DNA of 61,368 nt, the filler included, from Kipferlia bialata (Eukaryota): NCBI GenBank assembly GCA_003568945.1. It is 3 parts of 3 records of this genome, joined end to end, with 100 filler letters (N's around TTAATTAATTAA, not from the genome) between each part and the next. Parts side by side here need not be neighbours in the genome. Positions count along the whole stretch, not along the records: positions 1 to 20,395 come from BDIP01000376.1; positions 20,496 to 40,888 come from BDIP01000377.1; positions 40,989 to 61,368 come from BDIP01000378.1. One strand, 5' to 3'. Every line of letters starts with the position of its first letter. Positions within the stretch are counted from its first letter, which is position 1. Shown one piece after another: positions 5,965 through 61,322 of this stretch. The notes beneath the pieces are model-generated. The model was not told the origin of the DNA. It made no database searches and was given only the letters and a program-made list of their open reading frames with translations. The position numbers were made by a program, and so were the translations under genes.

Positions 5965-5966
<2 letters not shown>

Positions 5967-6936
5967 ATCCCAGTCCACCCATGACGGGGCTCTCCCTCAT
6001 GGTGGGGGTCTGGGGTCTGGGGTGAGGGTATACATAGACTGTATATACATACAAATCCATCAATACAAAATGCATAATAGATATAGGAACATATGCACGT
6101 GGTGGGGGTCTGGGGTCTGGGGTCAGGCACTAACACTAAGGGACAACAAATATCAGTGATTATTAATAGGCACAACGACACTATCTTCAGAGACATATAC
6201 ATAACACATATAACATCTCACGTAGTGAGAGAGGACTGGGCCCCACCTGCTGACTATCTCTGGTAGGTACTCTGTGACGTCTGAGGCACGGTGCTGGGTG
6301 TGAGAGATATATACACTATGTAGACATATATATAGAGTTTTCCATATATATACAATACAAGATGGAGATATACATACATGTATCTGAAAGGATATATACA
6401 TTGGAGGCACGGTACTGGGGGGGAGAGGGATACATTTGTAGAATAGATATGTTGTAATGAATGCAAAGCACACCATATACAGTGTACAATATGTATATGT
6501 GTCCCAGTATCCATACCTGGTGCTATATAGCACATAAGTATATGCACATATATGTATCATATATGTACCTGGTGTGGCAGTGTGGCCACTGTCTGGGTGG
6601 CAGCAACGGTGGCAAACTCCTGAAGGGGTTAGAGTCTCAATGAATACATACACGCATATAGTAGTACATATATTCATCCTTAATCATCCTTACCCGCACT
6701 CTCTCCTCCAGCCACTAGGGGTGGGGGTCACAAGGCTCTCTCTCTCTCTATATATATATATACATATACATATTCATATCTCTATATACACCTATACCTG
6801 CACTCTCTCCTCCAGCCACTGGGGGTGGGGGTCACAGGGGTCAGACACGTCCTGAGGTAAGAGAATGAGACAAGAGAGAGAGAGAGAGAGAGCATAGCAG
6901 CAACGTCCCTCATCTCAGAGGGGGCAACCTGGGTAA

Positions 6937-6979
<43 letters not shown>

Positions 6980-7568
6980 GGGGGTCACAGGGGTCAGACA
7001 CGTTCTAGGGGGTGAGCCAACACAAGACAACACATAAGATATCCATACACATACTGATTTGTATATACATATACCATATATATGTGGAGAGAGAGACAAG
7101 GGAAGTTGCATACCTCGAACCCCTCCTCCAGCAGCTCTGCCTCCACACTCTTCCTGAGGGCACGGAGGGCAAGGAGGTATCTGGAGTGAATACATATATG
7201 GGTATAAGTACACACATTTACAATACTTGGCAGCACAGCATACTGGAGCTACATACCTGGCCCATGAGTTGACTGCAAAGAACACCACCTCGAGTCTGGG
7301 GGCACGGCCTGAGGTGAGATATAGTATGTAAACAGACATGAGTATACATATATACTATATAATTTTGTATATATGGAACACATCAGTCTGCGTACATGGC
7401 CTGGGAGACGAGTGTGAGTATGTATACACCTTTACATATACATATACACTTAGTAGTGTACCTAGTGACACACTTGAGCTGACTGCTGAGACATACTCCA
7501 GCACCACCCCCTCATCGGTGGCATGGATGTCTGGTATGCAGTCAACTAGAAGACCGGCACCCTTAAGT

Positions 7569-7605
<37 letters not shown>

Positions 7606-8710
7606 ATGTGGCATGGATGTCGGGGATACAGTCAACTAGAAGACCGGCACCCTTATAGTGAGATAGACTATATATAGATATATATGAAGACAGAGGGAGG
7701 GGGGGAGGTTTAGAGAGGGAGGTTTAGAGAGGGGGGAAAACTCACCTTGGTTGGTCCCAGGGCAGAGGAGAGACGACGGCGCTGGAAACCTGTGTAAGTC
7801 AAGATACACCATACACGAACTATCTATTCTCCATTGTTAAGAGATACCTGTTGACTTGACCAGCTGATCTCTCTCTCTCTGTCTCTCGGTACATATATAC
7901 ATATAGCTCTATATACATAGACCTACCTGTTGACTTGACCAGCTGCTCTCTGCTCTGTGGGCCATGCCTCAGGGCACGCAGGAGGCGGACCTAGAGGGTA
8001 ACATAATGTGTATATATACATACTCATATTTATATATATATAGAGAGAGAGGGGGGGGGGGATGAAATGTCTCAGGGCACGGAGGAGGCGGACCTAAGTG
8101 GTTAGGAATACACTCATGTATAGTTAAAGTATACATGTTTATGCACAAAGAGAGAGAGAGAGTTATAGTGTCTCAGGGCACGCAGCAGGCGGACCTAAGG
8201 GGTTAAGTGTACATACAGTATATGTATACATATATATTATACATATTTGTTGTGTTCGTATATATGTATAGAATGAATATATATACACTGTATGTATAGC
8301 GTGTACCTGGATCCTCTCCACGCTGTGTGCGTAACGGGAGCTTCTCTCTTCCTGATGGTGAGAGAGGAAGAGCATACACTTGCAAGGAGTATCTCAAACA
8401 CAAGTACTATGAATAATGTACACTTCTAAGTAAGAGACATGGCAGTCACTACTGTGCTCTTTATAGCCCTAACATATCAATTCATCAGAAGTGAGGATTG
8501 GGTATGCGAGGATAGTGGACTTAAAGTATAGTATACACTATTATGCATATTATATATCGTACACAAGTATAGTCACTATTACCTCAGGAGTGAGGATTGG
8601 GTATGTGAGCACTGTGGATCCATTGGTGTTGAAGGGCAGGAGTCTGTCTGTGTCACCAGGGGTGTCAGAGGCAACCTGGAGTTATAGTATACACATACAT
8701 AGAGAAAAAG

Positions 8711-8748
<38 letters not shown>

Positions 8749-57967: not shown

Positions 57968-59894
57968 CTACAGGTCTCTGATGTATGCCTCCCTGGTCTC
58001 AGAGTCAATCTCACCAGCCAACAGCCACCTGAGGTGTCAGTACTTACAAGTGGTAGAAAAGATACATTGAGAGGGAGAGAGTCAGAGCGTGAGTATATAT
58101 GCATTACTCTTTCTCACCCCTCGTGTGACACCGCACACCATCCAAAGGCTCCGACATATAGTCATATATATATATGTCATATATAAATATATATAATATA
58201 TATATAAATATATATAATATATATATAAATATATATACATGGGGTAGGACAGATAAGAGAGGGAGGGTGGGGGAGAGAGAGAGTATACAAAATATTCCTC
58301 ACCCCTCGTGTGACACTGCACACCACCCAAAGGCCGATGCAGAGAAACAGGCATCGGATATCAGGATGCCACAGCCGTGTCTGCTGGGGGTAAGGGAGTA
58401 GAGACACATATACATACACATATAGGAAACAAACATATATATATATGGTGACTGGTATATGCATATCCTATGGATGGATACTATGATGCCACAGCCGTGT
58501 CTGCTGGGGTGTGTGGAGTGATAGAGACACGTATATCAGTAACAATGGTGGATAGAAATGAATACAACATTATGCTACTCCCACCTCTCCCCCCTGCCCA
58601 TAGATGACACTTATACATTCATATACTTATATATATATATATATATACATATATGTATGAATAGAATAATATTATATATATCGTAACGTGTCCATACCTC
58701 TCCCCCCTGCCCCTAGTTGTGAGTACCACACCCAGTCTGGTGTCCACATGCAGGGAGCAGCCTGGGGGGTTAGAGAGATGACACTTACATATACTGTGTA
58801 TCACACATATACATACCTGTCCTAGTCAGTGGTGACACCACGTGCAGTCTAGACAGGGGTGGGGGGTGGGGCATATCAGCCTCACTCTCACCCTCACTCT
58901 CACTGTCTACCTTCTGCCTCTCTGGTAGCTCAATAGGCAGTGGGAGGGAGAGAGAGAACACATCCCCAGAGGGTGAGGCAGATAGGTACAGACCCCGGAT
59001 AGGGTGGAGGGAGAGAGTGTACTCCTGCGAGTAGTCTCTCTCTCTCCCCCCCTCCTCCTTCTTAGAGTATCTACCAAGGGGGGCAAGGGAGAGAGGCAGA
59101 GAGGTGCTGGGGGTGAGGGTGTACACGTTTGCAGTCCCCTCTCCCTCTGGCTGAGCGAGAGAGAGAGAGTAGGACAGGATGCGGTGGGTACAGAGGATGA
59201 GGACGTGGCCTAGTAGCCTGGCCTCTCCCTCTCCCTCTCTCTCTCCCCCTGTCTCCCCTCCCATTCCCTCCTCCTCAGGGACTAGCAGTATCTGTCTGGG
59301 GAGATCGCCAACAGTCACTGGGGTGAGAGAGGGAAAAGCACTTTTCATTATCCTCACAAGTTTATACACATGCATACAAATGATTCTACCTGGTATGGCT
59401 GCAACCTCCTTCTCTCCCTCCTCCTTCTTCTCCTCAGCCTTCTCTCCCTCTCCCTCTCCCTCTCCCTCTCCCTCAGTCTCCTTCTCCCCCTCAGTCTCTC
59501 TCTCCACATCTCTCAGACCGACAGGGACAGTAGCAAGAATGGACAGACCAACCTAGGGTGAGAGTATGAAGTATACACCCACATATATATTGAATAGTAT
59601 ATATGCTAGGCTACTATATTCTATATATACTGATAGGGACAGTGGCAAGGGTGGACAGGCCGACCTGTTTTTGGGGTACACCTAGTAGACATTCACTAGT
59701 GTATATGTGTAGGCATTAGGTATATATAAGTATATACAGGTATATATATAGATATGTACCCTGTGTCCAGGATAGGCAACACCTAGGGTGAGACAGAAGA
59801 TTATAGATATACAATAACACATGTATGTGTGAATGATACGTAAATTATACCCCACTTCCAAGGTGACTCTCTGCCTGTATGTCTGTCCCCACAA

Positions 59895-59934
<40 letters not shown>

Positions 59935-60685
59935 GTACATATAATATACAGTTACTAATACCAATCACTCACCCTATGCCTCTCTGCCTGTATGTCTGTC
60001 CCTACCACATTCACTGAGTAGGAGGGAAAGGGTGTCTGGTACCGGCATAGAGTGACAGCTACTCCTAGGGTGAGACATATATGTATATATATATATATAA
60101 TACATAATATACAAATATATGTGTTGTACTATACATATATCATAGTGTCACGGCAATGTCTGGGTAATAGGTAGATGCATATATATATATATATATATAT
60201 ATCGAAACTGCACCTGATCACCCTCAACTGTAAAGTATAATCAATACAGGTCACATGAATATTTACATGTATATATAGTGTACTTGTGTGTGTACTTGTA
60301 TATACAGTTTGTGTACCTGGTATCTGTGAGTGTGTCCACCGCCAGCATATGCATACAAATACACACATATATACACATACATATATACAATACTACATAT
60401 ATATATACATATATACCTGGTATCTGTGTGTGTGTGTCCACTGCCAGTACAGGCTCACAGGGCAGGGTGCCACAGACCTGGAGTGAGGGATAGGTACTTT
60501 AACATACAGTAGTCCACCTACATATACACACTATATATATACTCACACTGACAGGGTAGGGTGCCACAGACCTGGAGTGAGGGATAGTGGGAGAAGCAGG
60601 CATAGTCAAAATAGTGGGTCATCTCCCCCTCCCCAATATCTCTATATCTCTATAAATAAAATATGCAGATAGAAATGTACACACT

Positions 60686-60717
<32 letters not shown>

Positions 60718-61136
60718 CAATTATACATATATACATATACACGTACTGAGAGTGCATCCTCTGCCAGTGGGTCATCTCTCTCTCTCTCTCTCTCTCTCCC
60801 TCCATATATATATATACATATACATACACACACACACATATATATATATGCATACCCATACCGACAGTGCATCCTCTGCCAGTGGGTCCTGCCTCTCTCT
60901 CTCTCTCTCTCTCTCTCTCCACACACACACATATATATACATATATATACGAATATATATACTCTTACCGACAGCGCATCATCTACTTATATATGTACTA
61001 ATACTATCACATATCCATACCGACAGTGCATCCTCTGCCAGTGGGTCATGTCTGACAGCCAATAGGTGGTTGCCTGACCCCCTAACACACCCCGTCACAT
61101 ACACACAGTCCATGGAATCATCATCAGAGGGGATGG
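57968..61136 (-). CDS. C-terminal part of a multi-exon protein, possibly a beta-propeller/WD40-like
   Basis: In-frame terminal exons CSLHVDTRLGVVLTT...|RHGCGILISDACFSASAFGWCAVSHEG|WLLAGEIDSETREAYIRDL*; upstream exons have short beta-like segments (YTLSLHPIRGLYLSASPSGDVFSL). Continues beyond the window. Confidence 0.55.
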
Positions 61137-61322
61137 CTGGTGTGAGTATGAGACTATATACATATATATACATGCTATACATATATGTAGTAGTTGATGT
61201 ATATACTATGTACATAGACAGTCCATCGAGTCGTCATCGGAGGGGACGGCTGTGGGTGAGTATCAGCACAGATGTATAGGGAGATGACAAACTATGTGGA
61301 TAGGGAGAGGAGGGAAGGATGA

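What the first reader, a model, noticed from the sequence alone, without database searches (positions are those of the whole stretch)
5965..61256. Pervasive 'exon shadows': introns packed with truncated tandem copies of the flanking exon ends plus splice sites
Seen: in nearly every gene from about 6 kb onward, on both strands, introns read exon|GT..[exon tail|GT]xN....[AG|next exon head]xM..AG|exon. Examples are 4 heads at 23076-23420, 5 tails at 31752-32042, 5 tails at 38477-38889, 3 heads at 48388-48610 and 4 tails at 46707-47045. Copies are about 10-50 nt and dissolve into TA/CA/GA microsatellite. Many keep perfect splice sites; the 23396 copy has CTCACCCCAG while the real exon uses CTCACCTTTAAG. 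Inference: correct mRNA needs the first donor joined to the last acceptor across many decoys. That implies strict exon definition or nested, inside-out splicing in which the inner tail and head copies are joined first.
Basis: partly seen in the sequence, partly recalled or inferred. Interest (0 to 1): 0.85.

Follow-up and report, generated by a model that had tools for sequence, protein, structure and literature searches.

The report
Introns stacked with old exon ends
In this stretch of the genome of the free-living protist Kipferlia bialata, most introns hold extra copies of the neighbouring exon ends with good splice signals that the one messenger RNA examined ignores, and the copies differ from the real exons mainly at silent codon positions, so they are likely leftovers of other versions (alleles) of the same genes captured by imprecise recombination.

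Summary
Real and pervasive. The window is Kipferlia bialata. 94 of 152 modelled introns hold 156 copies of a flanking exon end, 154 with the stated polarity; each copy adds about 100 nt. DNA contigs reproduce the copies; a spliced RNA contig of the 64-exon glycogen-debranching gene joins first donor to last acceptor, even using a weak GC donor or a weak acceptor over consensus decoys. That fits exon definition. Nested or recursive splicing does not fit: only 12 of 74 decoy-bearing introns are balanced and no donor is regenerated. New here: copies differ from the exon about four times more at fourfold-silent than at first/second codon positions (two expected for simple neutral duplicates), also copy against copy, while their intron sides are mostly unrecognisable. 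Best reading: junction pieces of diverged alleles added by imprecise homologous recombination, now decaying, implying past genetic exchange. The scan found single-locus analogues before on other DNA (annelid PRPF6, RPL12). I found no paper describing this architecture.

The parts
20804..39538 (+). Glycogen debranching enzyme gene, 64 modelled exons (42-129 nt), 63 introns (61-746 nt), 37 introns with exon-end copies; 5' start lies further upstream
   Evidence: Pfam hDGE_amylase and GDE_C on single exons; 1617-codon open frame; RNA contig offsets and joints; copies
21825..22144 (+). GC-AG intron: weak GC donor used; tail copy 21910-21948 with consensus GT donor ignored; head copy 22033-22064
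   Evidence: RNA joint 21822-22143, skip 320; donor scores 2.3 vs 10.1 bits
22974..23501 (+). 528-nt intron with four head copies (23076, 23202, 23292, 23396), all with AG, no tail copy; spliced to the last acceptor
   Evidence: RNA record positions 4418-4486 and 4356-4417 are contiguous across it; scores
31683..32178 (+). Intron with 4-5 tail copies; the copy at 32025-32042 also has an acceptor-like motif before it
   Evidence: RNA length offsets
38337..39082 (+). 746-nt intron with five tail copies and one head copy
   Evidence: lies past the last listed RNA anchor (37960), so splicing here rests on the open frame
41202..57401 (+). FYVE/AAA_16 protein gene (KIPB_002335); 35 of 45 modelled introns with copies; first 36 exons identical to the public protein
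46668..47213 (+). Intron with four tail copies whose differences lie at third codon positions in 11 of 14 variable columns, in mosaic patterns
48258..48695 (+). Intron with three head copies (48388, 48494, 48583)
6247..11134 (-). Minus-strand gene of unknown family, 13 of 18 modelled introns with copies
12572..19465 (+). Two plus-strand gene segments either side of an N gap; 6 of 21 modelled introns with copies
58303..61136 (-). Minus-strand gene segment, 3 of 5 modelled introns with copies; more copies by eye up to 61256

Best explanation
The copies are 17-54-nt ends of the flanking exons, added in steps of about 100 nt together with their splice signal, that the messenger examined ignores, likely because this spliceosome pairs each acceptor with the next donor across the exon, and most copies likely came from other alleles of the same gene through imprecise homologous recombination and are now decaying without a function. 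Shown: the anatomy (first donor, tail copies, core of normal intron length, head copies, last acceptor), the RNA product for one gene, the silent-site excess, the decay by frameshifts and stops. Inferred: exon definition as the molecular rule. Inferred, less sure: origin by one-ended repair of breaks in the microsatellite-rich introns from a homologous chromosome whose exons match but whose introns do not; synthesis runs through the donor allele's intron a few tens of bases into the next exon, and is joined to the untrimmed other end, leaving old intron half + foreign exon end + foreign intron. The same event with the sister chromatid, or later slippage, gives the minority with a matching intron side. 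Unequal exchange between alleles after a local duplication would give the same signature and is not separated here. The reading needs about 0.13-0.17 silent divergence among alleles and past genetic exchange.
For: Splicing: RNA offsets match the first-donor/last-acceptor model at 16 of 16 anchors from 24428 to 37960 once two exon ends mis-set by one base were corrected; 9 listed joints and contiguous pieces confirm exons 1-12, including the GC donor and the four-decoy intron. Decoys are as strong as real sites (GT kept 64 of 78, AG 52 of 60; score at least that of the own real site in 31 of 64 and 24 of 52). Intron length = 108 + 102 x copies, r 0.87; spacing median 101 nt, 110 of 138 within 80-125 against 50 expected from random-length duplications. 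Exon side 85-95% identical, intron side about 0.45 against 0.3 background right past the junction; intron side recognisable in 30 of 138. Differences: 112 of 541 fourfold sites against 110 of 2023 first/second positions; corrected ratio 4.3 (bootstrap 3.2-5.8), 6.8 (4.0-12.7) in the enzyme gene; copy against copy 46 of 179 vs 41 of 716. Simple duplication predicts at most 2; simulation of detection bias gives 40-43% synonymous against 54% seen, 156 of 287; trinucleotide-aware null p 0.002; alignment-free window 72 of 353 vs 70 of 1250. Internal control: copies with a matching intron side give ratio 2.0 (13 of 122 vs 20 of 383), the others 4.3 (99 of 419 vs 90 of 1640), p 0.0014. Decay: 24 indels, 17 of one base, and 4 stops. 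Context: metamonads lack NHEJ, rely on homologous recombination, and Fornicata have lost Rad51A and keep two Dmc1 (PMC8516963, passages).
Against: No second strain or allele was available, so allelic origin is inferred from one genome; DNA run X1 lists no differing letters over 20.6-40.5 kb, so the needed diversity is not seen in this sample. The narrow 100-nt period is not explained by the model (uniform breaks would give shorter spacers than the observed 53-83 nt) and does not track exon length (rho -0.05). The control class is small (26 copies). A direction-of-change test did not separate fourfold from first/second positions (p 0.88). Strong donors are not depleted after decoy acceptors (6 in 3916 nt vs 27 in 16718), which a strict exon-definition filter might predict. 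One intron has a head copy before a tail copy at the lower threshold (30686, 30760). RNA support is one contig of one gene; other models rest on open frames and, for 36 exons, the public annotation.
Confidence: 0.55

Rival explanations
1. Spare parts: copies arise by local tandem duplication and stay under weak, indirect selection because breaks in the microsatellite spacers are often repaired by annealing exon end to copy (or by conversion of the exon from the copy), so the copy's letters enter the coding sequence.
For: Would give a silent-site excess without allelic diversity; mosaic patterns between exon and copies at 46707-47046 suggest conversion; single-strand annealing is available in metamonads (PMC8516963, passages).
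Against: Copies with a matching intron side show exactly the neutral ratio of 2; frameshifts and stops are present; replacement changes are barely more conservative than random (mean BLOSUM -0.27 vs -0.58, SE 0.16); nearest and farther copies show the same ratio.
Confidence: 0.15
2. Plain splice-site minisatellites: local slippage duplicates of about 100 nt, neutral, ignored through exon definition, with the intron side scrambled by fast microsatellite mutation; the silent excess comes from faster substitution at exon fourfold sites than in intronic copies.
For: 30 of 138 copies keep a recognisable intron side and several arrays are found by Tandem Repeats Finder with periods 70-111; two copies follow the stop codon where there is no splice site (39581, 39635); precedent in human F7 intron 7 (PMC1557585, passages).
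Against: Ratio 4.3 and copy-copy ratio near 5 exceed the ceiling of 2; the class with matching intron side shows no rate excess; 25 of 34 copies with at least 97% exon-side identity have no recognisable intron side.
Confidence: 0.2
3. Nested or recursive splicing: inner decoy pairs are joined first or decoys serve as ratchet points.
For: The core between last donor-like and first acceptor-like site has normal intron length (median 106); decoys keep strong signals.
Against: Balanced in 12 of 74 introns; the four-head intron has no decoy donor and its exon starts TG; no enrichment of GT starts or branch points in exon ends; decoy dinucleotides are lost at roughly the neutral rate (14 of 78, 8 of 60).
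Confidence: 0.05
4. Assembly artefact of short reads in repeat-rich DNA.
For: Draft short-read assembly with N gaps; only contigs, no long reads, were laid.
Against: Separately built contigs of X1 up to 4.4 kb match without differences; copies are diverged from each other and codon-patterned, which mis-assembly would not create.
Confidence: 0.02

Closest known systems
Human F7 intron 7 37-bp minisatellite spanning the donor site (PMC1557585, passages read) and variable tandem repeats at exon-intron boundaries of human duplicated genes (PMC2812944, passages read)
   Same: Repeats carry the exon end plus splice site into the intron; the site next to the real exon is used although the copies are as strong.
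   Different: Single loci there, 62% of introns here; both donor and acceptor sides; the intron part of the unit is mostly not repeated; fixed period near 100 nt; differences are codon-patterned.
Exon definition versus intron definition (PMC3488318, passages read)
   Same: Innermost acceptor-to-donor pair across the exon is used; exons are short and narrowly sized (no internal exon under 39 nt among 144).
   Different: Here in a protist with ~100-nt basal introns and a reduced spliceosome (87 of 174 proteins found, no snRNA candidates; PMC6679479, passages); intron definition is the usual expectation for such short introns (own knowledge).
[quoted passage not shown]
   Same: Duplicated exon sequence ends up in introns; strong AG|G context (AG before the donor in 124 of 142 introns).
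   Different: That model puts the downstream exon's head at the intron start and the upstream tail at its end; here the order is reversed and the duplications lengthen existing introns.
Recursive splicing at ratchet points (recalled) and introner elements (recalled)
   Same: Extra splice sites inside introns; many short introns with uniform phase.
   Different: No AG|GT ratchet signature; copy-free introns form no sequence family (best cross-hits equal to simulated).

Membership tests
Splice-junction minisatellite (F7 intron 7 type) | First unit spans the exon-intron boundary | tested here: met
   138 of 155 copies reach within 4 nt of the junction
Splice-junction minisatellite (F7 intron 7 type) | Whole unit, intron part included, repeated head to tail | tested here: not met
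   Intron side recognisable in 30 of 138 copies only
Splice-junction minisatellite (F7 intron 7 type) | Site adjacent to the real exon is used | tested here: met
   RNA contig, one gene
Splice-junction minisatellite (F7 intron 7 type) | Pseudo-sites work when the authentic site is mutated | not testable with these tools
   needs minigenes
Exon-definition splicing | Acceptor paired with the next donor across the exon regardless of stronger sites in the intron | tested here: met
   GC donor 2.3 vs decoy 10.1 bits; acceptor 3.8 vs decoys up to 12.2
Exon-definition splicing | Cross-exon U1/U2AF/SR complex | not testable with these tools
   biochemistry needed; whole genome not held
Nested or recursive splicing | Matching inner donor-acceptor pairs or regenerated AG|GT donors | tested here: not met
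   balanced 12 of 74; GT start 8 of 44 vs 17 of 108; branch-like tails 0 of 46
Nested or recursive splicing | Intermediate junction or lariat reads | tested here: inconclusive
   only contigs were available
Introner elements | Dispersed family of similar introns | tested here: not met
   58 copy-free introns, best cross-hit median 24 vs 23 simulated; window only
Rogers tandem-duplication intron gain | Downstream-exon head at intron start, upstream-exon tail at intron end | tested here: not met
   opposite polarity in 154 of 156 copies; head before tail in 0 of 29 pairs

The most novel reading that the evidence does not exclude
K. bialata introns grow genome-wide by a recombination-driven process that stacks junction fragments of other alleles at a ~100-nt pitch, so a single homozygous genome stores a fossil population sample of its own genes (evidence of cryptic sex and high diversity), made harmless by strict exon definition in a reduced spliceosome.
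Probability: 0.4. Interest if true: 0.9.

Novelty: new variant of a known kind. Interest (0 to 1): 0.76.

Why it matters
It gives hundreds (genome-wide probably tens of thousands, extrapolated from 62% of introns here and 124,912 annotated introns) of natural splice-site competition experiments in a lineage with a reduced spliceosome, and points to exon definition with ~100-nt introns. If the allelic reading holds, it is a new route of intron growth and a way to read past recombination and diversity from one genome of a protist with no described sexual cycle (own knowledge). It also warns annotators: the public protein model appears to use one tail copy (53141-53185) as an exon.

Tried and rejected
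No whole genome held, so all counts are for this window. Run search: no RNA holder listed on record; X2 is RNA by guess, and its contig is spliced. No contig with a decoy junction was seen (1 contig laid in 20560-24700; 13 in 20600-40500, the others short partial matches); contigs drop rare forms, so this is no evidence of absence. Second strain: exact 28-nt pattern 0 hits and P0001 patterns 41 candidates, none confirmed, in metagenome contigs; single exons were too short for locus search. Homologue search with a 43-aa exon found nothing. Protein atlas unreachable. No tRNA and no Rfam match. Segment B2 (53925-57401, 11 exons) kept 4 stops and differs from the public model, so it was dropped from all codon tests after (13 copies; 12 of the 138). 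carry copy lists made before two one-base coordinate fixes (13537, 55703). Tests that did not discriminate: direction of GC/AT change, exon length against decoy distance, strong donors after decoy acceptors. Strong acceptors before decoy donors look depleted (1 in 4977 nt vs 26 in 16718) but the comparison region may hold undetected copies. Introner family, recursive routes and detection bias were tested and rejected. Zhuo et al. 2007 (introns from tandem arrays) was not held; only its title was seen in a reference list.
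Full report
Source and genes. A 102-residue exon translation matches one database protein at 100%, named KIPB_002335 of Kipferlia bialata, a free-living fornicate. No whole genome was held. The gene at 20.8-39.5 kb is a glycogen debranching enzyme. I modelled it as 64 exons giving 1617 codons without a stop. 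Exons are 42-129 nt; 62 of 63 donors are GT, one GC; 63 of 64 acceptors AG, one AT; a branch-point-like motif sits 7-10 nt from the intron end in 60 of 64; exon ends are strongly AG. A splice model trained on this gene, then curated, gave seven more segments; the first 36 exons of the FYVE gene translate identically to the public protein over 1123 residues.

The observation. Aligning each exon to its neighbouring introns found 69 copies in 37 of 63 introns of the enzyme gene, all from the adjacent end of the exon, against a chance rate of 0.4%. Over eight segments there are 156 copies in 94 of 152 introns, 154 with the expected polarity, about 3 expected by chance. Copy-free introns have a median of 94 nt and length grows by 102 nt per copy (r 0.87). 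Junction-to-junction spacing has a median of 101 nt (quartiles 90-111); 110 of 138 fall in 80-125 nt where random-length duplications that include just one splice site would put about 50. No copy covers a whole exon (maximum 83%). Tails precede heads in 29 of 29 pairs, with one exception at a lower threshold. Contigs of DNA run X1 reproduce long stretches without differences, so an artefact is unlikely, though X1 may be the source sample.

How it is spliced. One 5210-nt contig of run X2 covers exons and skips introns. Its coordinates agree with the first-donor/last-acceptor model at 16 of 16 anchors between 24428 and 37960 after two one-base corrections, and one search lists 9 joints (2 more dropped at repeats) and pieces for exons 1-12. 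The weak GC donor at 21824 (2.3 bits) is used and the consensus GT decoy at 21948 (10.1 bits) is not; the acceptor at 23502 (3.8 bits) is used past four decoys of 3.7-12.2 bits. The contig shows no letter differing from the real exons, so the copies do not supply the main message. Decoys keep GT in 64 of 78 and AG in 52 of 60 and often outscore their own real site; losses are near the neutral rate. Pairing each acceptor with the next donor explains all of this. Nested splicing needs matched inner pairs, found in 12 of 74 introns; recursive routes need GT-starting exons or branch points in exon tails, and neither is enriched. Rare use of decoys cannot be excluded with contigs.

Where the copies come from. 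Identity is 85-95% on the exon side and drops to about 0.45 (background 0.3) just past the junction; only 30 of 138 copies have a recognisable intron side, and only 9 of 34 whose exon part is at least 97% identical. Differences from the exon are codon-patterned: 156 of 287 synonymous, against 27% for random change and 42% if exon and copy simply diverged for equal times (p 1.5e-5; p 0.002 with trinucleotide context). Fourfold sites differ at 0.207, first and second positions at 0.054; corrected ratio 4.3 (3.2-5.8), 6.8 (4.0-12.7) in the enzyme gene; copy against copy 0.257 and 0.057. Simulation shows no detection bias and a fixed-window count on 125 of 126 copies agrees. A neutral duplicate of the same chromosome cannot exceed 2. 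The 26 copies with a matching intron side give 2.0, the other 100 give 4.3, with equal first/second-position divergence. The copies themselves decay (24 indels, 4 stops). The simplest joint reading is that most copies descend from versions of the exon that were coding long after they split from the present exon, that is other alleles, bringing their own unrelated intron sequence. Mechanism (inferred): breaks in TA/GA-rich introns repaired from the homologue, one end copying the donor intron and some 30 nt of exon, the other end left untrimmed. PMC8516963 (passages) reports no NHEJ in metamonads, reliance on homologous recombination, and loss of Rad51A with two Dmc1 in Fornicata. Unequal exchange between alleles after local duplication fits as well. 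Against: no second allele is listed in X1, no second strain was found, and the 100-nt pitch remains unexplained. Rivals are indirect selection on copies as repair templates and plain minisatellites with unequal mutation rates.

Known cases. The closest is the human F7 intron 7 minisatellite, where the first donor is used over identical pseudo-sites (PMC1557585, passages), and tandem repeats at human exon-intron boundaries (PMC2812944, passages). Rogers-type intron gain has the opposite polarity (PMC2891723, passages). The K. bialata genome paper reports 124,912 GU-AG introns and has no occurrence of 'duplicat' in its main text (PMC5874029, passages and one methods section); PMC6679479 (passages) reports 87 of 174 spliceosomal proteins and no snRNA candidates; PMC10711314 (passages) only cites the intron count; PMC3488318 (passages) defines exon and intron definition and notes that uniform intron phase is rare. 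Ten full-text searches showed no listing describing this architecture; I saw most hits as listings only, subscription journals are missing, and I did not open any supplements, which could bear on the claim. Earlier notes of this scan describe single-locus analogues in animals and nothing on this genome.

Verdict. Observation confirmed; exon-definition-type choice well supported for one gene (about 0.85); allelic-capture origin likely but unproven (about 0.5). New variant of a known kind, interest 0.76.

Noticed in passing
window 29745-29850 (+): A GT-AT intron in the enzyme gene: RNA length offsets and frame fit an acceptor ending in AT, not the next AG 11 nt on.
   Followed up: partly
window 53333-53418 (+): 26 nt of exon are duplicated around 30 nt of TA-rich filler with no second acceptor motif; a 44-nt GT-AG cut would keep the frame and add four codons, a possible nascent intron. 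The public model instead uses a tail copy (53141-53185) as an exon and enters at 53418.
   Followed up: partly
window 39581-39658 (+): Two copies of the last 24 coding bases and stop codon follow the gene end, separated by GA repeats, where there is no splice site.
   Followed up: partly
whole window: Intron phases are nearly uniform (52/43/47 of 142) and the enzyme gene has 13 introns per kb of coding sequence with strong AG|G context, which suggests lineage-specific intron gain rather than ancestral introns; positions were not compared with other species.
   Followed up: no
whole window: No modelled internal exon is under 39 nt among 144, about 54 expected for random intron placement; a possible 23-nt exon near 59784-59762 (-) was left out of the models.
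   Followed up: partly
window 30760-30774 and 32025-32042 (+): Two tail copies are preceded by acceptor-like motifs, forming 12-15-nt pseudo-exons that the RNA offsets show to be skipped.
   Followed up: partly
window 46707-47046 (+): Copies 1 and 3, and 2 and 4, resemble each other (period about 190 nt): a pair was re-duplicated, then partly overwritten by exon-like letters.
   Followed up: partly
window 55503-55532 (+), by eye: A strongly diverged head copy below the detection threshold still encodes the same first five residues as exon 55571.
   Followed up: no
window 4214-5201 (+): Short intron-containing gene with a weak Prismane (hybrid-cluster protein) match, E 0.002, apparently truncated at about 100 codons; no copies in 4 introns.
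   Followed up: partly
window 16420-19465 (+): Gene segment with a faint VHS-domain match (E 0.05).
   Followed up: no
window 15493-16269, 20395-20496, 40889-40999, 47960-47966: N gaps; two hold a short A/T spacer typical of contig joining, so order across gaps is assembly-dependent.
   Followed up: no
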